This document shows, piece after piece, positions 1,754-12,866 of a stretch of 64,000 bases of DNA (position 1 is the first letter of the stretch; each line of letters starts with the position of its first letter). A program made the translations under genes and the position numbers. The notes below the pieces were generated by a model. That model had not been told where the DNA came from. It saw only the letters and a program-made list of their open reading frames with translations, and did not search any database. Source of the stretch: an uncultured Pseudomonadota bacterium (lineage in GTDB: Bacteria > Babelota > Babeliae > Babelales > Vermiphilaceae); NCBI GenBank assembly GCA_964417975.1, contig CAYQJQ010000003.1, positions 35,413-99,412 of the forward strand, given 5' to 3'.

Positions 1754-2017
1754 CTACCAATTAATGATAGGAGTTACCACTGTTTTTTTTCTTGCCATAG
1801 AACGCTTAGCGGAAGCCTTCTTTGCAACTACACGTTTCTTTGCAGTTGTCTTTTTTGCAGTGGTACGGCGTGCAGTTGTCTTTTTGGCAGCTGTAGTTTT
1901 TCTAGCAGCAGTTTTACGACGAACTGTTTTTTTCTTTGCTGAAGAAGCTACGCGTGAACGTGAGCTCGTCTTTTTAGCAGTCGACTTACGTGCTGCTGGT
2001 TTTCTCTTTACTACCAT
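1754..2017 (-). CDS. small lysine/alanine/threonine-rich basic protein, histone H1-like / Hc1-like nucleoid protein
   Basis: An 87-aa protein made of reiterated AKKTT/ARRTT/AKKK motifs. The ATG at 2017 is preceded on the minus strand by a purine-rich SD (aaaagggggaatac ATG). The + strand ORF 1746..2045 is its low-complexity shadow. Confidence 0.7.
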   Translation of the reverse strand: MVVKRKPAARKSTAKKTSSRSRVASSAKKKTVRRKTAARKTTAAKKTTARRTTAKKTTAKKRVVAKKASAKRSMARKKTVVTPIINW

Positions 2018-2277: not shown

Positions 2278-3618
2278 TTACGGAGCAACTGTGATCCTGT
2301 TTTTATGTTTCTTAACCGCCCACGCAAGTATATGTTCATCAACAGTGTTATTGTCAGCTATCAAGGTCTCAGAATATATAGTATCAACAACTTGCTCTAT
2401 CTCTCGGCCCGATATATTAGTAGGCAGTTCGCTGACTAATTGTTTAATACGTGCTGGATTTTTTAAGAGTTCATAATTAATTCTTTTCTCTATTGTGGGA
2501 GGATTGTCGTGTTGTGTAAATAGTATACTATTGCTTTCTTTCAATGAAAATAAACCGCGTGGTAAGCTTACTCGTGGTTCCCCTCGCTTGTAAATAAATT
2601 GATTTTGACCAAAGCGTTTTTTGATATGTATATTAAGGATCTCGTTTTTTTTATCTTCATCGGGCAATGGAAAATGTGTATGAGAAGTAAAACGTGACAA
2701 AACTAACTTATCAAATTTTTTTGGATTATTGGCAGAAAAAATAATTGAATAAGACGAAGAAGGACTTCCTGTCTCGGTTAAAAATTTTGTCATTGCATCC
2801 TTTCTTCCTTTGTCTGATTCATTTTCAATGTCTGTAAAGACTTTATCAGCCTCATCAAATACAATAATAGTGGGTTTTTTAGCAGCAAACGTAAACACTT
2901 TGTCAAATTGTATAGCTGCCTCACCTGTCTTCATATAATAGGATAAATCAGCACCAGAAAAAAATACCACTTGCATACCACAATGCTCAGCAATCAGCTT
3001 TATAGATTCTGTTTTACCGGTTCCTGCTTCACCATAAAAAATAAGGTTTTCGTAATTCGCTCCATGTTCTTTTGCTGCTTCTATTCTTTTAATTATGTGC
3101 TCAAGCTCCTGTTGTGTGCTGAGAGGTAGCGCTAATTTCTTTTTTAATTCCTCAAAGGCCAATTTCGACGAGCCTCCTTTTTTGATAGGTAAGATAGTTT
3201 TCTTGTTTAAGAGTGACGGGGCAGTATAATACTTAAATATTTCTCCCAATAGATACGACCCAAGTATAGCTGCAGGTAGCGCAACTATATTCTGCATTTT
3301 AAGGTGCCATTCAAATTTTTTAGCAGAAATGTGAATACCTTGTAAGGCTTCCACTGACGCTTTAAAATTTGATATCTCGCTAAGTATTTCTTTTGCTTTA
3401 TCGTCAATTGATGAAGTACCCAGTGCAATTTCCTGGATATCTGTTATTACGTTGAAAATTTGCGGGTTATTTTTGACTGCCTGCAGGAGATATGCTAAGC
3501 AAATTAAGGGTTTAAGATTACCCGGTACTCCTTTGTCCGCGGCATTCAGCTGTTGCGGATGTACGAAAAAAAATAGCAGTATGAAAAACAATAGTTTGAA
3601 TGATTTCATCTTAGTCAC
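2278..3618 (-). CDS. membrane-anchored AAA+ ATPase, ATAD3-like
   Basis: Walker A is GEAGTGKT and Walker B is IIVFDEADK. It has an N-terminal signal/anchor ([16 protein letters not shown]), a helical region and a second hydrophobic helix ([18 protein letters not shown]) before the ATPase domain. The C-terminal ISGREIEQ motif and the segment [32 protein letters not shown] resemble ATAD3 as I recall it. The start may be the ATG at 3609 rather than the GTG at 3618. Confidence 0.8.
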   Translation of the reverse strand: [446 protein letters not shown]

Positions 3619-3913
3619 CGAAATAAAAAGAATTTATCGTGTAAGCTTTGTGGAAAAAAATTACAAATAAATTAAAAAATATGCTTCCTTTTTAATTCCT
3701 TATTATTTTACTATATAATTAATTTTTTTCAATATTCAAAATGCTTTATTGGTTTATATTGCATTTTTAAATTTAAGTTATTGGTTATTTTTTACTGCTT
3801 ACTTATAAAAAATGACCTTATTATCACATTCCCACTTTTAACAAATTGGTACACCGCGTATACTGATACCGTAGGGAAACAACGATCTATTTTATAATGA
3901 GTGATCAAATACA

Positions 3914-5335
3914 ATGCAAAAAAAATTACCTGATATTAAGAGTGACTTTGCGCAATGGTACCAAGAGGTTATTTATTCAGCCGAACTGGTTGACCAATCA
4001 CCAGTTCGGGGTACTATGATTATCCGGCCCTATGGCTGTGCCCTGTGGGAACGCATGCAGGCGGTATTGGACGCCCGAATAAAGGCAACCGGTCACCATA
4101 ATGCTATCTTTCCTCTGTTTATTCCAGAATCTTTTTTAAAACGGGAAGCACAACATGTTGAAGGTTTTGCGCCTGAATTAGCAGTAGTTACCCATGCGGG
4201 AGGAAAAGAGCTTGACGAACCATTAGTAGTACGGCCAACCTCAGAAACCATCATTCATTATATGTTTGCACGCTGGATTACCTCGTGGCGTGATTTGCCA
4301 TTAAAAATAAACCAATGGGCCAATGTAGTACGCTGGGAGATGCGCCCCCGGGCTTTTTTGCGTACGACAGAATTTTTCTGGCAAGAAGGCCATACGGCCC
4401 ATGCAACCCACGAAGAAGCGCTTGCCGAAGCTCTGACTATGCTCAATGAATATGTTTTATTTGCCGAACAGTACTTGGCAATTCCAGTGATTACGGGTAG
4501 GAAGACTGATAGCGAAAAATTTCCTGGTGCTCAGATTACCTATACTTTTGAAACATTGATGCAGGATGGTAAAGCCTTGCAAATGGGCACCTCGCACCTG
4601 TTGTCACAATCATTTGCCCATGCATTTGAGATGAAATTTCAGGACGCTGCCGGTGTAGTACAATATCCACATTTGACCAGCTGGGGCGTTACCACGCGCC
4701 TTATTGGTGCATTGGTTATGGTGCATGGCGATCAAAAAGGCCTGATTATGCCTCCACGTATTGCACCTCATCAGGTAGTTATTATACCGATTATGAAAAA
4801 AGGTATTGATGAAGCTCGTATGAAAGAAGCGATTGCCGATGTTAACGATACGCTTACTGCTGCCGGTATTCGGGTAGTCGTTGATGCAAGTACTGACAGT
4901 CCTGGATCTAAATTTTATGCCTGGGAACTGCGCGGCACCCCCGTGCGCATAGAAATAGGTGCACGTGAACTTGAACAGGGTACCATGGTGTTGGTTGATC
5001 GCCTCGGTTTGGTAAAAGAAACTATTGATCGCGATGTTTTAGTACCATTTGTCACGCAGTTACTCGATAAAATACATGCAACATTATTTGCACGTGCTAA
5101 AGAGCGCCTTCTTTCCTTTTGGTACCACGGAGTCAAGTTATCTGAGTTTGGACCACAACTTGAAGAGCATGGCGGTATGTACCAGGTAGGCTGGTGTGGG
5201 AATGCTGCATGTGAAGCAGAATTGAAAAAATACAAAGCATCAAGCCGTTGTATTTTAGAGTCTGTAAGTTCGGTAGATTGTTTTGTGTGCAATAAACCAA
5301 GCACCTGTGATATATTGGTTGCAAAATCATATTGA
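3914..5335 (+). CDS. proS: prolyl-tRNA synthetase, archaeal/eukaryote-like type
   Basis: N-terminus FAQWYQEVIYSAELVDQSPVRGTMIIRPYGCALWE, class II core motifs, a C-terminal Cys-rich domain and a terminal Tyr. At 473 aa it lacks the bacterial-type insertion domain. Confidence 0.9.
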   Translation: MQKKLPDIKSDFAQWYQEVIYSAELVDQSPVRGTMIIRPYGCALWERMQAVLDARIKATGHHNAIFPLFIPESFLKREAQHVEGFAPELAVVTHAGGKELDEPLVVRPTSETIIHYMFARWITSWRDLPLKINQWANVVRWEMRPRAFLRTTEFFWQEGHTAHATHEEALAEALTMLNEYVLFAEQYLAIPVITGRKTDSEKFPGAQITYTFETLMQDGKALQMGTSHLLSQSFAHAFEMKFQDAAGVVQYPHLTSWGVTTRLIGALVMVHGDQKGLIMPPRIAPHQVVIIPIMKKGIDEARMKEAIADVNDTLTAAGIRVVVDASTDSPGSKFYAWELRGTPVRIEIGARELEQGTMVLVDRLGLVKETIDRDVLVPFVTQLLDKIHATLFARAKERLLSFWYHGVKLSEFGPQLEEHGGMYQVGWCGNAACEAELKKYKASSRCILESVSSVDCFVCNKPSTCDILVAKSY

Positions 5336-6399: not shown

Positions 6400-7536
6400 A
6401 TGTACAGTACTTTTATTGTTGAGCAAAAACAGTTGTTTTCTATTTTGTCTTCGATGCAACCTATTTGTACTAAACGTACCACTATGGATAGCACCGCATC
6501 GATTTTATTTCACGTTGGCTTCAAAGAACTGGTATTAAAGAGTACTGATCTGGAGGTCAGTTTACAATCCAATTGCAGCTTGGTAAAAAATACTGGTACA
6601 CATGAATTTGATTTTTTAGTCTCCGGTAAAAGAATCTTTGATTTAGTAAAAGAATTAGAGGGCGATATTACGTGTACAATGAGTAGCACACAACTGCATT
6701 TGTCTGCAAATGATGTACAGGTAAGCTTAAATTTACGCGATGCACAAGATTTTCCAGCATTCCCCGAGCGCATAGAAAACATCATGCAACTTGATGCAAG
6801 TTTACTGATAGAAATGATTAATAAAGTAGCATTTGTGATTCCGCAAAACCATGCAAACGCTGCTCTCAATGGATTGTACTGGGAACTATCGAGTACAGCA
6901 TTGACTATGACAGCCACTGATGGGCATTGCTTAGCGCAAGTTATGTCGCCTATCTGTACACATGATGAACCACGCCGCTGGTTACTACCTCGCCGTGCCA
7001 TTTTTGAATTAAAAAAAATTATTGAGTCACTCAACGGTACATCAACCCTCTTTTTAGGACTGTGTAATAATCAACTCGTTTTTTCTGGTGAATCATTTAA
7101 CTTTTTTACTAAGTTGCTTAATGACTCATTTCCACAATATGCGTCTATTTTAAATAAAGATGGATTTGTCCCTGCAAGACTTGATAGAACGAGGTTTCTC
7201 AAAACCCTACGCCGGTCAACCTGCTTTTTATCTGGTAACTTAGTGCAAGCAACCTCCTTTCATTTTGGTGATCAAAAGCTCAATGTGACTATGGACAATA
7301 AAGAGATTGGTCGACTGGATGAATCTATTTCCTTAGATGCTTATGCAGGCAACCCGTTAACCGTCTATTTTTATGCACCCTATTTATTGAATGGGGTTCC
7401 GGTACTAGGTGGCGACTCAGTGAATTTGTTGCTTAAAAATGGTTCATCACCCGTAATTTTTCAGGATCAAAATGAGCGATTTTCGCTTCTGTACCTTGTT
7501 ATGCCGATAGTACCACAACGCAATGAATGCAGCTAA
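6400..7536 (+). CDS. dnaN: DNA polymerase III beta sliding clamp
   Basis: A 378-aa protein with three-domain clamp length. It contains LLIEMINKVAFVIPQN..NAALNGLYWEL and LTMTATDGHCLA, and the C-terminal YLVMP pattern. recF lies immediately downstream. Confidence 0.85.
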   Translation: MYSTFIVEQKQLFSILSSMQPICTKRTTMDSTASILFHVGFKELVLKSTDLEVSLQSNCSLVKNTGTHEFDFLVSGKRIFDLVKELEGDITCTMSSTQLHLSANDVQVSLNLRDAQDFPAFPERIENIMQLDASLLIEMINKVAFVIPQNHANAALNGLYWELSSTALTMTATDGHCLAQVMSPICTHDEPRRWLLPRRAIFELKKIIESLNGTSTLFLGLCNNQLVFSGESFNFFTKLLNDSFPQYASILNKDGFVPARLDRTRFLKTLRRSTCFLSGNLVQATSFHFGDQKLNVTMDNKEIGRLDESISLDAYAGNPLTVYFYAPYLLNGVPVLGGDSVNLLLKNGSSPVIFQDQNERFSLLYLVMPIVPQRNECS

Positions 7537-8602
7537 TATATGTGTCGCCGAACTGCAGTTAAAAAACATTCGGTGCTTTAAAGATACGCGTATTGTTTTT
7601 CAATCCCCTCTATCAGTTATTATTGGGGCTAATGGTTCAGGAAAAACAAGTATCCTCGAGGCCTTGCATTATGCGTGTTATTTTAGGTCATTTCGTACGC
7701 ATGCTGTACAGGATATGATAGCGCAGGGATCTGATACTTTTTTTTGTTCCCTGTCTTTAGGCTTTAATGGAGTTACCCATATCCTCAATACCGGTTTCTC
7801 AGTCAATAAACGTTTGATTACGTTGGACGGAGCCCCTATCGCCTCCCATAAAAAATTATTGGACTATTATCGGGTTGTTGTTATATCTGAATTTGATTTG
7901 GAGTTAGTGACCGGTGCACCAGAGGGGCGGCGTTCATTTATTGACCATTGCTTGCTTTTGGGGAGTGAGCGAGAGGAGGTCTTTCCTTTATTGAAGCATC
8001 TAAAAAGCATTATTAGTAACCGGATGCATTTGGTTGCAACGCTTGCCGCCGCTAATGATGAATATTGTATATGGACAGAGCGGCTTTTGGGGGTATCTGG
8101 TTGTTTACGTACAGTTCGGATTAGGTATTTAGCACAGCTTGAGGCTATGCTAAATACTATTGGGCCACAGTTTCTGGGGGAGAATATTGCAATTCGCCTT
8201 CATTACCAGCCAAAAGAGTGGAAAGATGATCTAGCGGCACTCTATCGAGCAGAAAAAAAATTAAAACGCTCCATGTGCGGAGCTCATTTAGACGATATCG
8301 TCATTGAATTCAACGGTATGAATGCTAAAAAAAACTGCTCTCGTGGACAACAAAAACTAGTGGCACTGCTATTAAAGGTTGCACACATGAGTCTTGAGCA
8401 AGTTCAGTGTTCAAAGCAGCCCCCATTACTACTGATCGATGATTTTTTCAGTGATTTTGACCCTGTGATACAAAAAAAGGTGCTTTCACTCATTATGGAT
8501 ATGGGTTCTCAGGTTGTGTTGACCGTTCCGGAGCAGGAACAAAACAGTCTCCCTAGCAGCTTGCGTTCCTTTCCTTTTTCGATCATAAATCTTTCTATGT
8601 GA
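7523..8602 (+). CDS. recF: DNA replication and repair protein RecF
   Basis: Walker A is GANGSGKTSILEALHY, the signature is SRGQQKLVALLLKVA and Walker B is LLLIDDFFSDFD. It overlaps the dnaN stop by 14 nt. Confidence 0.85.
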   Translation: MNAANICVAELQLKNIRCFKDTRIVFQSPLSVIIGANGSGKTSILEALHYACYFRSFRTHAVQDMIAQGSDTFFCSLSLGFNGVTHILNTGFSVNKRLITLDGAPIASHKKLLDYYRVVVISEFDLELVTGAPEGRRSFIDHCLLLGSEREEVFPLLKHLKSIISNRMHLVATLAAANDEYCIWTERLLGVSGCLRTVRIRYLAQLEAMLNTIGPQFLGENIAIRLHYQPKEWKDDLAALYRAEKKLKRSMCGAHLDDIVIEFNGMNAKKNCSRGQQKLVALLLKVAHMSLEQVQCSKQPPLLLIDDFFSDFDPVIQKKVLSLIMDMGSQVVLTVPEQEQNSLPSSLRSFPFSIINLSM

Positions 8603-8643
8603 AAGCAAAGGCCTAAAATTAGCCATTTTTTTACTATAAAAGG

Positions 8644-8672
8644 TTGACACCCCGAAAAAAATGGGGTACTAT
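8644..8672 (+). promoter_or_regulatory. near-consensus sigma-70-type promoter (TTGACA, 17-nt spacer, TACTAT)
   Basis: ttgaca at 8644-8649, a 17-nt spacer at 8650-8666 (ccccgaaaaaaatgggg, itself a small palindrome) and tactat at 8667-8672. It lies 42 nt after the recF stop. Confidence 0.5.
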
Positions 8673-8678
8673 TTGAAA

Positions 8679-8807
8679 TGTATTAAGAATACATATTAAA
8701 CAAAGACGTTTTTACAAGTATTCTTAATGTTTAAATTAGGCTTCATTACTACTCTCCTTTTTTCCATCGCATTAGTCAGTTCTGATTGATGCGGTGGAAT
8801 TTTTTTT
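8679..8807 (+). ncRNA. candidate small RNA of about 130 nt, family unknown
   Basis: It runs from the predicted start about 7 nt after the -10 element to the intrinsic terminator. It has an 11-bp hairpin (ATTAAGAATAC 8682-8692 / GTATTCTTAAT 8718-8728), then a single-stranded CU-rich stretch (actactctccttttttcc), then the terminator hairpin. No ORF is present. Confidence 0.4.
8764..8807 (+). terminator. rho-independent terminator
   Basis: The stem is ccatcgca (8764-8771) / tgcggtgg (8790-8797) with one G-U pair, followed by aa and a run of 8 T (8800-8807). Confidence 0.6.
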
Positions 8808-9247
8808 GTAATAACTATTTTCCATAGCCCACCTGTTTTTGACGACTTCTTTAAAATAGTTTTTTCTCAGTTATCTCAATACCCCATTTTCTGTTCCTGT
8901 AAAAATGTCTTCTGATAATTTTTAAGTCATCGGTAAAACAAAAAACACGATCAAGGATCAATTAAGCGCATCTATTTTTTAAATGATCAAGTCAATACAT
9001 GCCAGAATTTTATTTTTCGCCTGAATTTAAATTAACGGCAAATAAACCCAAGCGCTTCTACACTATTTTTTGAGTCATTCCGCTGTCATTTGTCCCGTTA
9101 CAGATATATTGCCCAGCGCAAATGTTTACATAATATCCATTATCGGAACACCCCCTAAAAAACCTTATTTTTACGGGCTTTTTTGGATGGTCACAGATTC
9201 TATTGTTGCGCCATAATTTGCCCCCAGTTTCCTTGTAATCTCAGTCA

Positions 9248-9277
9248 TTGAAGTACTAAAAGCGATTATGATACTAT
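9248..9277 (+). promoter_or_regulatory. possible promoter of the ankyrin gene (TTGAAG, 18-nt spacer, TACTAT)
   Basis: ttgaag at 9248-9253 and tactat at 9272-9277, about 50 nt upstream of the ATG at 9327. The -10 hexamer is the same as in the 8644 promoter. Confidence 0.3.
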
Positions 9278-9326
9278 GAAATAAAGAGGAATTCATCGCA
9301 TAATATAAAAGCAGGATTAAGATAAT

Positions 9327-10346
9327 ATGAAAATAATTAAATATTTAATTACATTGATTCTTTTTTCTTATGTATACCGTACTAAAATAAATGCAGTAGT
9401 CGAATCAGTATGGGAAAAAGAGCCGGTAAAATCTACGGTTGAAAAATTAACACCAGATCCCAAAATGAGTAGGTGCCTGATTAGTGCCAAGAAAAACACA
9501 GACAATCCACTTAAGGGATTGGAGTCCTGTTTTTGGTATGCCATTCGGACTGAAAATAGCGACGCCTTAACCTTGCTGTTAGAAACGGGAGTTGACCCTA
9601 ATATAAGAAATATTACGGGGTACACGGGGTTAATGGTACATGCAGGTGGACCGCATGATAATTCAGCTATAACAGAACTTTTATTAAAGGCTCACGCCGA
9701 TCCTAATAAGCAATCATTGGCCGATGGTACAACAGCGCTTTTACGGGCGGCCGAAAAAGGAAATATTGCTATTGCCCAGGCGTTATTAGAACACAAAGCA
9801 ATGGTTAATCAGCTTGATTATTACGGTAATTCACCATTATTACTGGCAGCGCGAAACGGCAAAACCGAAATGGTGCGTGTGTTGTTGACAAAAGAGCCAC
9901 TCATTAATCATCAGAATCAAACCGGAACGACTCCATTAATGGCTGCGGTAGGCAATGAACATACTGATGTAGTTAAAATCTTATTACAAAATAATGCTAG
10001 TACCATTGTACAAAACCAGGCAGGAGAAACAGCCCTCATGCTTGCTGTTCAAAATGACGACCAAGATACGACTAATGCTATTCTGCAGGTAAATGACGAG
10101 ACGAGAGATGGTATTAACAGTAAAGGAGAAACGGCACTTATTATCGCTGCCCAAAACCAATCATTGCCATTAATCTCCTTGTTGATCAAGGCAAATGCCA
10201 ATCCCTTCATTACGGATGCTTCAGGCAAGGGTGCGCGCGATTATATTGATGATCACGATATATTAAATACATTTGATCAGATGATTACTGCAAACGAGAC
10301 AGTTCATAGAGCGCTATTGAAAAAGAACATAAGTACCCTGCTTTAA
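9327..10346 (+). CDS. secreted ankyrin-repeat protein (about 7 ANK repeats)
   Basis: It has an N-terminal signal peptide (MKIIKYLITLILFSYVYRTKINA). Repeated ANK consensus units include DGTTALLRAAEKGNIAIAQALLEHKAMVN, GNSPLLLAARNGKTEMVRVLL, GTTPLMAAVGNEHTDVVKILLQ and GETALMLAV. Confidence 0.9.
   Translation: MKIIKYLITLILFSYVYRTKINAVVESVWEKEPVKSTVEKLTPDPKMSRCLISAKKNTDNPLKGLESCFWYAIRTENSDALTLLLETGVDPNIRNITGYTGLMVHAGGPHDNSAITELLLKAHADPNKQSLADGTTALLRAAEKGNIAIAQALLEHKAMVNQLDYYGNSPLLLAARNGKTEMVRVLLTKEPLINHQNQTGTTPLMAAVGNEHTDVVKILLQNNASTIVQNQAGETALMLAVQNDDQDTTNAILQVNDETRDGINSKGETALIIAAQNQSLPLISLLIKANANPFITDASGKGARDYIDDHDILNTFDQMITANETVHRALLKKNISTLL
10294..10331 (+). repeat. 38-nt exact repeat, copy 1 (3' end of the ankyrin gene)
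   Basis: acgagacagttcatagagcgctattgaaaaagaacata is identical to 12808-12845. It encodes ETVHRALLKKNI. Confidence 0.95.
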
Positions 10347-10481
10347 AAAAAAGCAAAAATAATGCTTAGTTGAGTAGTAATTTAAAATTTTTGCCTTTAA
10401 TAACCTATTTTAATATGATTATTCTTCTGTTATTATTAATGATAATAATGCAATTTCTATTAAAAGAGTAATTAAAATCAT

Positions 10482-12866
10482 ATGAAACATTCATTTTTGA
10501 GATCTTGGGTTTCTGTATTTCACGCTTTTATTCTCCTGTTGTTTGCCGGAACTATTGAGCAGTCCTATGCTGCTCCTAGAATTAATCTTACCGTGAATAA
10601 TAGAAAAGTAATGCTACCGTTGGGTTTAGCGTTAACCGTGGGTTCTATGAGTTTGCAAAAACTAATAGCTTGTAAAGGTATTATTACGGCAGATAGAGGT
10701 ATTATTACGCCAGAAAAAACAACGCTTAAGACTACCACCAATACGGTTAAAGAGCAGATTAAACCTTCGGAATTTGCAGTTAGGGTAGCAAAAAGATTAG
10801 ATGGAAAAATATTAAAAGTAATAAAAGAAACAGGTATAGATACTGATTTACTCACTACAGAGCTCAGCATCAGTAAAACTGAAATCAATATGGCACTGAC
10901 AAGTTTTTGTAATGGTAATCAAAAAGATAACCCTATCGCGCAGGCAATTAAAAATTTATTGTACAAAAACTTAGACCCTGAATTTCATGCCTATCTCATG
11001 GTTAGCCCGGAGAGCATGTACAAAGTCTATACGAGCCTTTCGCTCGAAGAGAAAAATCAGGTTTTAGCAAATTTCAGTATTGTTCTTAAAGGCGAGGGGG
11101 ACATTGAAACTCCTCGTACCAAATACTCAAAGATCTTATATGAGAAATTAGATTCTCCTGAAGCTTACAAAAAGGCTGACTTATTAAGAAAAGTTTCACA
11201 ACAAAAGGCTGACTTATTAAGAGAAATTTCACAACAACTAGCAACGCAGGTTAATGCTGCTTTAGTTAATTCTAATTTAACGGAGAAACCCCGAGCAATT
11301 AGTTTAAACTCTATATTGAATGAACTCAAAGAAGATTGTGGTTTAAATCAACTATGTGATGAATTACTTACTCGTAACAATCTAAGCGAGGAGGAACGGC
11401 AAAACTTGAAAAAAATAGCCTTACATCATGTGTTATCAAAGTATCTAACGATTCAAAATAGTGATTTATTTACTCCTAAAATTGTTGGCTTATTATTTGA
11501 GTCTCTAGATGATGGAATTAAGGGGAATATATTAACAAAACTCACTAAGGCTTTTAATGCAAAAAATGCCGAAAATCACGAGCAATTAAAGAAGGAGAAG
11601 GAGTCTTATACTAAGATATTTTTACGTTCACTAATGTTTATGAACTGGAATGATCCATGTATTTACCAATTCATTGCATTGAATAGATATGCAACATTAA
11701 AGACAGATCAACAGAAAGAAGTATTACAATCTCTTGTCAATATTTTTACAAATCCTTATACAATGAAGCAAGAAACAACAAAAACGTTTACTGATACCTT
11801 ACGTAAATACCTTTTATTAGATTTTTGTACTGAGAGAGAATTAACTGCTTCTTGGCCAGACAATATATGGCAACACTATAATCTAAACCTACTATCAATA
11901 AATCGTTTGTATTCAACATTGCCTGAGGAAGAAAGAAAAATTCTTGGCGATCTGTTACGTACTATATTCGATCCAAAGTACCCAGATCGGCAAAAAGCCG
12001 CAAAAGAAGCCTATTTAACAGCTTTAAAAGAACGTAATAAAATCTTAACAACAGAACTACTAGATGGAGTATATTACAGTAAATGCGATAAAGTCAGTGC
12101 CGCATTAGAAAAAGGTGCTGATCCATACACTCGAGTGCCGGTCATGTTCAACGGCGCACAAGTTTTTTATCCTATTTTATATAAAATGATTGATACAAAA
12201 AACCAAGAGATGGCTAAGCTTTTATTATCGTATTGGCAAAGTCCAATTCATTATATTGATTTTCCGCCTTTTACAAGTGGAGAGGAAAAACAGCTATTTA
12301 GTTTATTTGATTTTTTAAACGATCCTAGGCATTATACTAGATTCCATCCAGAAACTTCAGATCACATGCAATTACAACAACAGCAAGAGAATCAACAATC
12401 TTTTAAAACAGAACTGTTACAATATTTTGTTGAGGAAGGTCCATTAGAGACTTTGATAAAAAATATAGAAAAAAATGAAAATTTTATAAATGAAGAAAGT
12501 AAAAAGATGCTACTATTAGGGCTAGTAAAATATTCATATAAACATGTTACTGATCAAAATGGTATGACTACCTGCATGTATGATGACTATATTGCTAGAT
12601 TGATAAAAAACCATCCTGAACCCTCAAAAATTCTTTCAGAGTTGTACTCGGCTTTAAAAAAGGATCAGGATAAGGGTAAGAAATTTCCGCGTTGTTGTGA
12701 TCATCGAATGGCAGTAAGCAAATTTAATCCAATTAACATTATCCCTACAGTAACAAATCTAAACGAAGACACATCATCGATTATCACGGAATATGCATTT
12801 GACTTTGACGAGACAGTTCATAGAGCGCTATTGAAAAAGAACATATTTGATATAGTTACTTCTTAA
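10482..12866 (+). CDS. large secreted protein of unknown function with ankyrin-like repeat(s) near the C-terminal third
   Basis: A 794-aa ORF in very AT-rich DNA with a signal peptide (FHAFILLLFAGTIEQSYA). It is helical and K/E/L/N-rich, with an ANK-like segment (LLDGVYYSKCDKVSAALEKGADPYTRVP ... NQEMAKLLLSY). I recognise no catalytic motif. Confidence 0.6.
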   Translation: MKHSFLRSWVSVFHAFILLLFAGTIEQSYAAPRINLTVNNRKVMLPLGLALTVGSMSLQKLIACKGIITADRGIITPEKTTLKTTTNTVKEQIKPSEFAVRVAKRLDGKILKVIKETGIDTDLLTTELSISKTEINMALTSFCNGNQKDNPIAQAIKNLLYKNLDPEFHAYLMVSPESMYKVYTSLSLEEKNQVLANFSIVLKGEGDIETPRTKYSKILYEKLDSPEAYKKADLLRKVSQQKADLLREISQQLATQVNAALVNSNLTEKPRAISLNSILNELKEDCGLNQLCDELLTRNNLSEEERQNLKKIALHHVLSKYLTIQNSDLFTPKIVGLLFESLDDGIKGNILTKLTKAFNAKNAENHEQLKKEKESYTKIFLRSLMFMNWNDPCIYQFIALNRYATLKTDQQKEVLQSLVNIFTNPYTMKQETTKTFTDTLRKYLLLDFCTERELTASWPDNIWQHYNLNLLSINRLYSTLPEEERKILGDLLRTIFDPKYPDRQKAAKEAYLTALKERNKILTTELLDGVYYSKCDKVSAALEKGADPYTRVPVMFNGAQVFYPILYKMIDTKNQEMAKLLLSYWQSPIHYIDFPPFTSGEEKQLFSLFDFLNDPRHYTRFHPETSDHMQLQQQQENQQSFKTELLQYFVEEGPLETLIKNIEKNENFINEESKKMLLLGLVKYSYKHVTDQNGMTTCMYDDYIARLIKNHPEPSKILSELYSALKKDQDKGKKFPRCCDHRMAVSKFNPINIIPTVTNLNEDTSSIITEYAFDFDETVHRALLKKNIFDIVTS
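11172..11237 (+). repeat. in-frame 33-nt tandem duplication (2 copies)
   Basis: aaggctgacttattaagaaaagtttcacaacaa at 11172-11204 and aaggctgacttattaagagaaatttcacaacaa at 11205-11237. They encode KADLLRKVSQQ / KADLLREISQQ. Confidence 0.9.
12808..12845 (+). repeat. 38-nt exact repeat, copy 2 (3' end of the 794-aa gene)
   Basis: Identical to 10294-10331. It encodes ETVHRALLKKNI just before the stop. Confidence 0.95.

What the first reader, a model, noticed from the sequence alone, without database searches (positions are those of the whole stretch)
2278..3618. Eukaryote-type (ATAD3-like) membrane-anchored AAA+ ATPase
Beyond the generic Walker A/B motifs, several segments resemble mitochondrial ATAD3 as I remember it. 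[13 protein letters not shown] compares with N(I/M)L(M/F)[20 protein letters not shown]...[49 protein letters not shown] compares with [11 protein letters not shown]...[57 protein letters not shown] compares with MSGREIAQ near the C-terminus. The domain order is also the same as in ATAD3: N-terminal helical region, one internal TM helix, then the AAA domain. ATAD3 is regarded as a eukaryotic (mitochondrial) family, so a bacterial copy with a signal/anchor sequence would fit host-to-bacterium gene transfer and a possible effector or membrane-remodelling role.
Basis: partly seen in the sequence, partly recalled or inferred. Interest (0 to 1): 0.6.

Follow-up and report, generated by a model that had tools for sequence, protein, structure and literature searches.

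The report
Bacterial ATAD3-like membrane AAA+ ATPase
This gene of a small-genome intracellular bacterium (Dependentiae) encodes a fast-evolving copy of a membrane-anchored ATPase family that is the bacterial counterpart of mitochondrial ATAD3, a protein the ATAD3 papers I could search treat as purely eukaryotic.

Summary
The ORF is real: window 2278-3618, minus strand, 446 aa.

The protein has a Sec-signal-like N-terminus, about 80 helical residues, one TM helix, and then an AAA domain with intact catalytic residues.

It is a long-branch, lineage-specific paralog. No ortholog was found in 80 genomes of the same family. It belongs to a family present in 69 of 151 genomes of its phylum, at 1-6 copies each.

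- **Link to ATAD3:** Typical family members, including a second copy in this genome, align with vertebrate ATAD3A from the TM helix to the C-terminus (33-37% identity, E 1e-50 to 1e-71).
- **Trees:** AAA-domain trees separate this family plus vertebrate ATAD3 from FtsH, PAN, CDC48 and IetA with 100/100 support. AU tests reject placing the ORF with FtsH (p=0.0007) or with the classical AAA clade (p=0.003).
- **Not a strict ATAD3 member:** the ATAD3_N domain is absent.
- **Gene transfer:** composition is native, and the direction of transfer is unresolved.
- **Effector role:** signal peptide followed by a stop-transfer helix predicts an inner-membrane protein with a cytoplasmic ATPase, the same orientation as ATAD3 in mitochondria. 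This argues against a secreted effector.

Verdict: the ATAD3-like call is supported; the HGT and effector claims are not shown.

The parts
2278..3618 (-). Whole ORF, 446 aa from GTG 3618. The more likely start is ATG at 3609, giving 443 aa. Stop codon at 2278-2280.
   Evidence: (P0002 = 443-aa form on record)
3538..3609 (-). Residues 4-27: Sec-signal-like N-terminus (MKSFK + [11 protein letters not shown] + HPQQLNA/AD).
   Evidence: Kyte-Doolittle peak at residues 1-25. The same feature is present in most family members. No dedicated signal-peptide predictor was available, so cleavage is inferred.
3292..3537 (-). Residues 28-109: variable helical segment, predicted periplasmic.
   Evidence: AlphaFold2 helices 33-50, 52-67 and 73-93 at low confidence (pLDDT ~50). 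No Pfam ATAD3_N match.
3223..3291 (-). Residues 110-132: single transmembrane helix ([19 protein letters not shown]...).
   Evidence: lysine-rich stretch follows on the C-terminal side ([24 protein letters not shown])
3052..3222 (-). Residues 133-189: juxtamembrane motif APSLL (family: FEPSLIE; ATAD3: GKPSLVRETSR), then a linker helix ending in the degenerate N-x-KKN box (AAKEHG).
   Evidence: alignments A1, A2 and A4; P134 and L136 are invariant
2599..3051 (-). Residues 190-340: AAA alpha/beta domain. Walker A G196-T203 (GEAGTGKT), Walker B D255-E256, sensor-1 N297, arginine finger R309.
   Evidence: Pfam PF00004; invariant columns in A2 and A4; pLDDT ~90-96
2479..2598 (-). Residues 341-380: insertion of about 36 residues specific to this protein, predicted disordered. 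It lies where ATAD3 and its relatives have a shorter insert before the lid.
   Evidence: (pLDDT <50 at 347-370)
2281..2478 (-). Residues 381-446: helical lid domain with the ATAD3-type S403-G404-R405 (ISGREI) sensor-2 motif.
3705..3732 (-). Promoter-like site TTGAAA-16-TAAAAT, about 90 nt upstream of the start. It is a consensus match only.
   Evidence: 6 sites found against 8.5 expected in shuffles, so not above chance

Best explanation
The ORF encodes a divergent, lineage-specific paralog of an ATAD3-like, membrane-anchored AAA+ ATPase family. The family is widespread but patchy in the Dependentiae (TM6/Babeliales) phylum of obligate intracellular parasites of protists.

Shown:
- Family membership.
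- Intact ATPase residues.
- ATAD3-type signatures in the AAA domain.
- Hydropathy peaks consistent with a signal-like N-terminus and one TM helix.

Inferred:
- The N-terminal signal sends the first ~110 residues across the inner membrane.
- The single TM helix acts as a stop-transfer anchor.
- The ATPase stays in the cytoplasm and assembles, like other AAA proteins, into a hexameric ring on the inner face of the membrane.
- The helical N-terminal segments project into the periplasm.

This is topologically the same arrangement as ATAD3 in mitochondria, where the ATPase sits in the matrix and the N-terminus points toward the outer membrane.

The family lacks the aromatic-hydrophobic-Gly pore loop of protein-threading AAA unfoldases. 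I therefore think it more likely couples ATP hydrolysis to organising the cell envelope or membrane protein/lipid assemblies, as proposed for ATAD3, than to degrading or unfolding substrates.

This particular copy probably arose from a typical family gene (a second, typical copy sits elsewhere in the genome). It has evolved fast while keeping every catalytic residue.
For: Closest proteins:
- The best single-domain hits in 1.84 billion representatives are all of one family, at 99-120 bits. This compares with 59-64 bits for vertebrate ATAD3 and at most 54 bits for FtsH and the other named AAA proteins.

Link to ATAD3:
- The paralog in the same genome (P0068, G000:C2) matches primate ATAD3A at 33% identity over 334 aa, E 9e-51, from the TM helix to the C-terminus.
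- A Babeliales MAG protein (P0069) matches at 37% over 350 aa, E 4e-71.
- JGI annotates three family members as 'ATAD3A/B'.

Trees:
- A 100/100 branch separates the ATAD3-like clade from FtsH, PAN, CDC48, multi-AAA proteins and IetA.
- The ORF sits in a 14-row subclade with P0068, at 99/94 (88/92 after IetA was added).
- AU tests reject placing it with FtsH (p=0.0007) or with the classical AAA clade (p=0.003).

Signatures shared with ATAD3 and absent from FtsH, PAN and CDC48:
- no Ar-Phi-Gly pore loop;
- a two-residue deletion in the second region of homology, with a single Arg;
- FL..TG..S motif;
- SGR sensor-2;
- an insert before the lid.

Constraint:
- It keeps all 30 columns that are invariant across 17 family sequences, including Walker A/B, N297, R309 and R405.

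Architecture and context:
- A signal-like N-terminus plus a TM helix ~80 residues before Walker A recurs across the family.
- 69 of 151 phylum genomes carry 1-6 copies.
- GC is 0.358 against 0.399 +/- 0.029 for the window's ORFs, and codon-usage distance ranks 11th of 40.
- Neighbours are housekeeping genes: photolyase, EamA, Hc2-like, ProRS, XerD-like, DnaN, RecF.
Against: - The ORF has a very long branch (1.9 substitutions per site against a median of 0.47).
- The AU test does not reject a position just outside the ATAD3-like clade (p=0.30).
- Its own pairwise match to ATAD3A covers only the AAA core.
- The PADLOC IetA profile scores about as high (68 bits) as vertebrate ATAD3 does by phmmer.
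- No ATAD3_N domain.
- No ortholog in 80 same-family genomes, so purifying selection cannot be measured.
- Signal-peptide cleavage, topology, oligomeric state and function are all inferred; nothing was measured.
Confidence: 0.72

Rival explanations
1. It is a translocated effector: an ATAD3 mimic delivered into the host protist to remodel or tether mitochondria.
For: - The family is accessory and patchy (69 of 151 genomes). It is multi-copy, sometimes in tandem arrays, and this copy is fast-evolving and lineage-specific. These are typical traits of host-interaction genes.
- A cultured member of the phylum, Chromulinavorax destructans, replicates wrapped in a remodelled host mitochondrion, and 44% of its proteins carry signal sequences (PMC6561590).
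Against: - A Sec-type signal followed by a hydrophobic stop-transfer helix predicts retention in the bacterial inner membrane, with the ATPase in the bacterial cytoplasm.
- No mitochondrial targeting features were seen.
- The gene sits among housekeeping genes and not in an effector islet.
- There is no experimental localisation.
Confidence: 0.12
2. It is a decaying or functionless duplicate of the typical family gene that happens still to be open.
For: Longest branch in the family, no ortholog in 80 related genomes, a ~36-residue disordered insertion, a degenerate juxtamembrane motif and an atypical Walker A (GEAGTGKT for GPPGTGKT).
Against: The 446-codon frame is open. All 30 family-invariant positions are retained, including every catalytic residue. 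The AAA and lid domains fold with pLDDT above 90. Codon usage is native.
Confidence: 0.1
3. It is an ordinary bacterial AAA protein (an FtsH derivative without the protease, or an IetA-type anti-phage ATPase) with no special relation to ATAD3.
For: The best NCBIfam and PADLOC models are IteA/IetA (59 and 68 bits). The best PDB sequence and fold matches are CDC48, PAN/Rpt and FtsH. The PDB appears to hold no ATAD3 ATPase-domain structure: none appeared among the matches.
Against: - AU tests reject FtsH (p=0.0007) and the classical clade (p=0.003).
- The IteA score of 59 bits is far below its 510-bit cut-off.
- A genuine IetA, taken from a P. putida plasmid next to its S8 protease, falls on the other side of the 100/100 split.
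- No S8 protease gene and no M41 domain lie near the ORF.
Confidence: 0.04

Closest known systems
Eukaryotic ATAD3 (human ATAD3A/B; Drosophila bor; C. elegans atad-3; Plasmodium PfATAD3)
   Same: - Same AAA subclade (100/100 branch).
- Same order: helical N-terminal part, one TM helix, P-S-L juxtamembrane motif, AAA domain, lid.
- Same signature residues: FL..TG..S, single-Arg second region of homology, SGR(E)I sensor-2, no aromatic pore loop, insert before the lid.
- Equivalent predicted orientation: ATPase on the cytoplasm/matrix side, N-terminus toward the outer membrane.
   Different: - Encoded in a bacterial chromosome.
- Begins with a Sec-type signal in place of the Pro-rich N-terminus.
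- Lacks the ~250-residue ATAD3_N coiled-coil domain (PF12037 not detected; over the cut-off in only 1 of 151 phylum genomes).
- Only 27% identical to ATAD3A, and only over the AAA core.
- Carries an extra ~36-residue insertion.
- Juxtamembrane motif reduced to APSLL.
Unnamed Dependentiae ATAD3-like family (e.g. own-genome paralog P0068; Babeliales MAG protein MFA5075347.1 = P0069; JGI proteins labelled 'ATAD3A/B')
   Same: Best hits, same subclade and same signal + TM + AAA architecture. It shares all 30 invariant positions.
   Different: Only 24-29% identity over the full-length alignment, rising to at most 37% over the AAA-domain tree columns. The KYIKKYxFEPSLIE and NxKKNGG boxes are degenerate. 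It has a unique insertion and no ortholog elsewhere.
FtsH (bacterial membrane-anchored AAA protease)
   Same: Inner-membrane anchoring with a periplasmic N-terminal part and a cytoplasmic AAA ring. Classical-type AAA fold (Foldseek).
   Different: No M41 protease domain, one TM helix after a signal instead of two TM helices, no FVG pore loop, no RPGR motif. Grouping with FtsH is rejected (p=0.0007). The genome has its own FtsH (L003).
IetA/IteA ATPase of the IetAS anti-phage system
   Same: Best curated prokaryotic profile. Shares the two-residue deletion in the second region of homology.
   Different: IetA is soluble, keeps the FMG pore loop, lacks the SGR sensor-2, and is paired with an S8 protease gene. 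It falls outside the ATAD3-like clade. No S8 protease gene is nearby here.

Membership tests
ATAD3 (eukaryotic mitochondrial AAA+ ATPase; PF12037 + PF00004) | The AAA domain groups with ATAD3 to the exclusion of other AAA clades. | tested here: met
   The clade of the Dependentiae family plus vertebrate ATAD3 has 100/100 support, and the ORF lies inside it. AU tests reject FtsH (p=0.0007) and the classical clade (p=0.003). Caveat: a position just outside the clade is not rejected (p=0.30).
ATAD3 (eukaryotic mitochondrial AAA+ ATPase; PF12037 + PF00004) | N-terminal ATAD3_N coiled-coil domain (PF12037). | tested here: not met
   No PF12037 hit even at E<=1. Primate ATAD3A scores 335 bits as a positive control. 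No hit in the ORF's own genome.
ATAD3 (eukaryotic mitochondrial AAA+ ATPase; PF12037 + PF00004) | A single TM helix immediately N-terminal of the ATPase. | tested here: met
   Hydropathy peak at residues 110-128, about 70 residues before Walker A. It aligns with the ATAD3A TM helix in A4.
ATAD3 (eukaryotic mitochondrial AAA+ ATPase; PF12037 + PF00004) | Juxtamembrane GKPSLVRETSR motif and NTKKN box. | tested here: inconclusive
   Only A-P-S-L-L and AAKEHG remain. P134 and L136 are invariant. The paralog P0068 and P0069 keep much more of both boxes.
ATAD3 (eukaryotic mitochondrial AAA+ ATPase; PF12037 + PF00004) | ATAD3-type signatures in the AAA domain and lid (FL..TG..S, single-Arg SRH with deletion, SGR(E)I, no Ar-Phi-Gly pore loop). 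| tested here: met
   Alignments with FtsH, PAN, CDC48 and IetA.
ATAD3 (eukaryotic mitochondrial AAA+ ATPase; PF12037 + PF00004) | Nuclear-encoded protein of the mitochondrial inner membrane. | tested here: not met
   The gene lies between bacterial housekeeping genes in a 0.96-Mb bacterial genome with native composition and carries a bacterial-type signal sequence.
Dependentiae ATAD3-like membrane AAA family (unnamed) | Closest sequence relatives and tree position. | tested here: met
Dependentiae ATAD3-like membrane AAA family (unnamed) | Signal-like N-terminus, variable helical region, one TM helix, then AAA + lid. | tested here: met
FtsH | C-terminal M41 zinc protease domain, and FtsH-type AAA domain. 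| tested here: not met
   No PF01434 hit. NCBIfam FtsH scores 26 bits against a 600-bit cut-off. AU p=0.0007.
IetA (IetAS defence system) | Score above the family cut-off, and an adjacent IetS S8 protease gene. | tested here: not met
   59 bits against a 510-bit cut-off. No S8 protease gene within about 5 kb. A genuine IetA falls outside the clade.

The most novel reading that the evidence does not exclude
Mitochondrial ATAD3 has a prokaryotic counterpart with the same membrane orientation. The Dependentiae family (with at least one more bacterial group of unknown taxon) would be either the source lineage of eukaryotic ATAD3 or a very ancient acquisition that has since radiated. In my trees vertebrate ATAD3 nests inside the bacterial diversity, as sister to a protein from the window's own family-level lineage (99/87). 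Bacterial monophyly is not rejected, however (p=0.12). If bacteria are the source, ATAD3's ancestral job would be an envelope function that spans the inner and outer membranes of a diderm bacterium.
Probability: 0.25. Interest if true: 0.75.

Novelty: new variant of a known kind. Interest (0 to 1): 0.5.

Why it matters
**State of the literature.** ATAD3 is essential in animals and in Plasmodium and is mutated in human mitochondrial disease. Its molecular activity and its evolutionary origin are both unknown.
- A 2026 study says ATAD3 was first thought to be confined to multicellular eukaryotes. [quoted passage not shown] The paper does not mention bacteria (PMC13249166).
- My full-text searches found no paper linking ATAD3 with Dependentiae or other bacteria.
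- Automated pipelines already label a few of these proteins 'ATAD3A/B'.

**What a bacterial family would offer.**
- A natural outgroup for ATAD3 evolution.
- Smaller proteins, without the coiled-coil domain, for biochemical and structural work.
- A test of whether ATAD3's role is fundamentally a function spanning the two membranes.

**This ORF on its own.** It is a modest item: a fast-evolving extra copy in one genome.

Tried and rejected
- **Word-indexed homology search with the family profile.** The candidate list was saturated by FtsH and returned no ATAD3. This is uninformative and is not evidence against the link.
- **Genome-contig scan with alignment A3.** It returned only unrelated AAA genes, so no organism names for the family came from it.
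- **PDB sequence and fold searches.** These gave only generic classical AAA proteins. The PDB appears to hold no ATAD3 ATPase-domain structure, so they cannot discriminate.
- **IetA anti-phage ATPase.** Considered because of the NCBIfam and PADLOC hits. Rejected on score, gene context and tree.
- **AAA-Ulp1 fusion family of Babela massiliensis (PMC4378268).** Considered. It has a different architecture, and no peptidase domain is present here.
- **Recent horizontal transfer.** Composition and codon usage are native.
- **Taxon of the P0083-type bacterial subgroup.** Context shows bacterial neighbours (CsbD, BON). The subgroup is absent from Dependentiae at close identity, and no source names were available.
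- **Promoter and terminator scan.** Nothing above chance.
- **Clostridium botulinum plasmid hits in the plasmid search.** Not fetched.
Full report
**Observation.** The window holds one long ORF at 2278-3618 on the minus strand (446 aa from GTG). An ATG three codons further in gives the 443-aa product held in the protein collection.

Hydropathy shows two hydrophobic stretches. One is signal-like, at residues 4-25. The other is a transmembrane-like helix at residues 110-128. Pfam finds only the AAA domain, PF00004, at residues 192-318 (E 2.6e-20).

**Genome.** The window lies in a 0.96-Mb, 13-contig genome that is 97% complete.
- Relatives in the same phylum have genomes of 0.8-1.9 Mb.
- One close family member of the protein comes from a 'Candidatus Babeliales bacterium' MAG.
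- Earlier notes of this scan call the genome Dependentiae. I did not check that label independently.
- Neighbouring genes are housekeeping: photolyase, an EamA transporter, an Hc2-like histone-like protein, ProRS, a XerD-like recombinase, DnaN and RecF.
- The ORF's GC content is 0.358 and its GC3 is 0.296. These are 1.2-1.4 SD below the window's ORFs. Its codon-usage distance ranks 11th of 40. There is no compositional sign of recent transfer.

**Relatives.** An exhaustive HMMER search of 1.84 billion representatives, re-ranked by best single domain, shows one family as the closest proteins.
- These proteins are 340-650 aa long with a single AAA domain, and they score 99-120 bits against the ORF.
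- They share the boxes KYIKKYxFEPSLIE, NxKKNGG, GMDYAIIP, FL.KTGTPS and GCSGRTIQ.
- One of them, P0068 (401 aa), is encoded elsewhere in the same genome, on G000:C2.
- Two others (P0003, P0004) are tandem genes on a bacterial contig beside topA and pseudopilin genes.
- The ORF has no ortholog in 80 genomes of its own family-level lineage; the best match is 31% identity. It is therefore a lineage-specific, fast-evolving copy.

**Link to ATAD3.** Pairwise BLASTP against primate ATAD3A gave the following.

| Query | Identity | Aligned length | E-value |
|---|---|---|---|
| The ORF | 27% | 171 aa (AAA core only) | 1e-19 |
| Own-genome paralog P0068 | 33% | 334 aa | 9e-51 |
| Babeliales protein P0069 | 37% | 350 aa | 4e-71 |

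The two stronger alignments run from the TM helix to the C-terminus.

Per-domain phmmer scores show the same order.

| Query | Vertebrate ATAD3 (bits) | FtsH and other named AAA proteins (bits) |
|---|---|---|
| The ORF | 59-64 | at most 54 |
| P0068 | 145-156 | at most 68 |

JGI's pipeline already names three members of this radiation 'ATAD3A/B'.

**Trees.** I built maximum-likelihood trees of the AAA + lid region (LG+C20+F+G4 by PMSF).
- A branch with 100/100 support separates two groups. One holds the ORF, P0068, proteins from 11 other genomes of the phylum, the single-domain representatives and vertebrate ATAD3. The other holds FtsH (including this genome's own), PAN, CDC48-like proteins, giant multi-AAA proteins and a genuine IetA.
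- The ORF sits on a long branch (1.9) inside a 14-row subclade with P0068. Support is 99/94, falling to 88/92 once IetA is added.
- AU tests reject grouping the ORF with FtsH (p=0.0007) or with the classical AAA clade (p=0.003).
- A position just outside the ATAD3-like clade is not rejected (p=0.30).

Sequence signatures, read from the same AAA + lid region as the trees, agree with them. The ORF and ATAD3 share all of the following, and FtsH, PAN and CDC48 lack them:
- no aromatic-hydrophobic-Gly pore loop;
- a two-residue deletion in the second region of homology, which keeps a single arginine;
- the FL..TG..S motif;
- an SGR(E)I sensor-2 motif;
- an insert between the alpha/beta domain and the lid.

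**What it lacks.** The ATAD3_N coiled-coil domain (PF12037) is not detected in the ORF or in its paralog.
- Across the phylum it passes the Pfam cut-off in only 1 of 151 genomes.
- Four representatives of the radiation do pass the cut-off: P0095, P0115, P0144 and P0156. Of the three whose N-termini I inspected (P0095, P0115, P0144), all begin with signal-like sequences.
- The ORF is therefore ATAD3-like but not a full member of the ATAD3 family.

**Distribution.** A profile of the radiation finds 1-6 copies in 69 of 151 genomes, covering 46 of 96 genera.
- Some copies lie in tandem arrays, for example G076:C7 at 25.4-30.3 kb and G070:C3 at 38.6-44.8 kb.
- A second deep subgroup (P0077 type) is also present in the phylum.
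- A third subgroup (P0083 type, with three TM helices and CsbD/BON neighbours) is bacterial but is not found in this phylum.

**Direction of transfer.** In the trees vertebrate ATAD3 nests within the bacterial sequences. It is sister to a 692-residue open frame (about 677 aa from its first Met) from the window's own family-level lineage (99/87). Forcing all bacterial sequences into one clade costs 25.9 log-likelihood units but is not rejected (p=0.12).
- I had only vertebrate ATAD3, so the direction is unresolved.
- The literature reports ATAD3 in animals, plants and apicomplexans but not fungi. That paper does not mention bacteria (PMC13249166).

**Structure and mechanism.** The AlphaFold2 model has a mean pLDDT of 73.
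- The AAA and lid domains are modelled with confidence (pLDDT 90-96).
- Residues 347-370, an insertion unique to this protein, are predicted disordered.
- The N-terminal 130 residues form low-confidence helices.
- Walker A (G196-T203), Walker B (D255, E256), sensor-1 (N297), the arginine finger (R309) and sensor-2 (R405) are all intact. The ORF keeps all 30 columns that are invariant across 17 family sequences. This argues for a working ATPase and against decay.

From the signal-like N-terminus, the TM helix and the lysine-rich stretch after it, I infer an N-out, C-in topology. The ATPase ring would sit on the cytoplasmic face of the inner membrane, and the helical N-terminal part would lie in the periplasm. 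This is the bacterial equivalent of ATAD3's reported orientation.

The family lacks a threading pore loop. I therefore favour a role in organising the envelope or membrane complexes over substrate unfolding. That last step is inference only.

**Rivals.**
- *Secreted ATAD3 mimic acting on host mitochondria.* This is attractive because a cultured relative remodels the host mitochondrion (PMC6561590) and because the family is patchy and expanded. The stop-transfer architecture argues against it.
- *Decaying duplicate.* This does not fit the retained catalytic residues.
- *FtsH- or IetA-type assignment.* Rejected by tests.

**Verdict.** The ATAD3-like call is supported at the level of the AAA subclade and the architecture. 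Strict ATAD3 membership fails because the N-terminal domain is absent. Host-to-bacterium transfer and an effector role are not shown.

The more interesting result concerns the family and not this single gene. A widespread bacterial counterpart of ATAD3 exists that the ATAD3 literature I could search does not mention.

Noticed in passing
G000:C2:39639-40841 (L002:1252-2457; L085:1501-2706): A second, typical ATAD3-like gene in the same genome (P0068, 401 aa, no obvious signal peptide in the called form). Directly upstream is an ORF that carries only the C-terminal part of a peptidase M41 (FtsH protease) domain.
   Followed up: partly
G000:C2:100535-101002 (L004): A 388-residue open frame (383 aa from its first Met) with an FtsH-type AAA domain, apparently without a protease domain. 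It groups with FtsH in the trees, next to the genome's full-length FtsH (L003; 623-residue frame).
   Followed up: partly
window 1754-2017 (-): An 87-aa lysine/alanine-rich protein with a weak match to the chlamydial histone H1-like nucleoprotein HC2 (PF07382, 32 bits, below the cut-off). It lies immediately downstream of the ORF on the same strand, with no terminator-like site between them.
   Followed up: partly
window 3914-5335 (+): Prolyl-tRNA synthetase with the ProRS-C_1 C-terminal domain (PF09180). From memory, this domain is typical of the archaeal/eukaryotic type of ProRS.
   Followed up: no
window ~6400-12000: dnaN-recF lie at 6400-8602, and the cumulative GC skew reaches its maximum near 10-12 kb and then falls steadily. 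This suggests a replication origin or terminus close by.
   Followed up: no
Related genomes: G076:C7:25471-30331, G070:C3:38608-44812, L100:10001-12776: Tandem arrays of two to three ATAD3-like genes in other genomes of the phylum. One genome (G076) has six copies in total.
   Followed up: partly
L091:1474-3549 (G036, same family-level lineage); P0144: A 692-residue open frame (about 677 aa from its first Met) with a signal peptide and a ~400-residue helical N-terminal region. It is the closest bacterial relative of vertebrate ATAD3 in the trees (99/87). Its near relative P0144 passes the Pfam ATAD3_N cut-off (30.6 bits).
   Followed up: partly
P0028-P0049 (representative library): Giant proteins of 870-2350 aa with 3-6 tandem AAA modules top the whole-sequence ranking because scores are summed. 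They form their own clades outside the ATAD3-like group. Their origin is unknown.
   Followed up: partly
L097:1181-2791 (P0007) and P0063/P0083-type proteins: A further ATAD3-like subgroup with three TM helices and the conserved motif GGDLAQYIKRGEHVTELN, encoded next to CsbD and BON genes. It is bacterial, but it is absent from the window's phylum at close identity and its taxon is unknown.
   Followed up: partly
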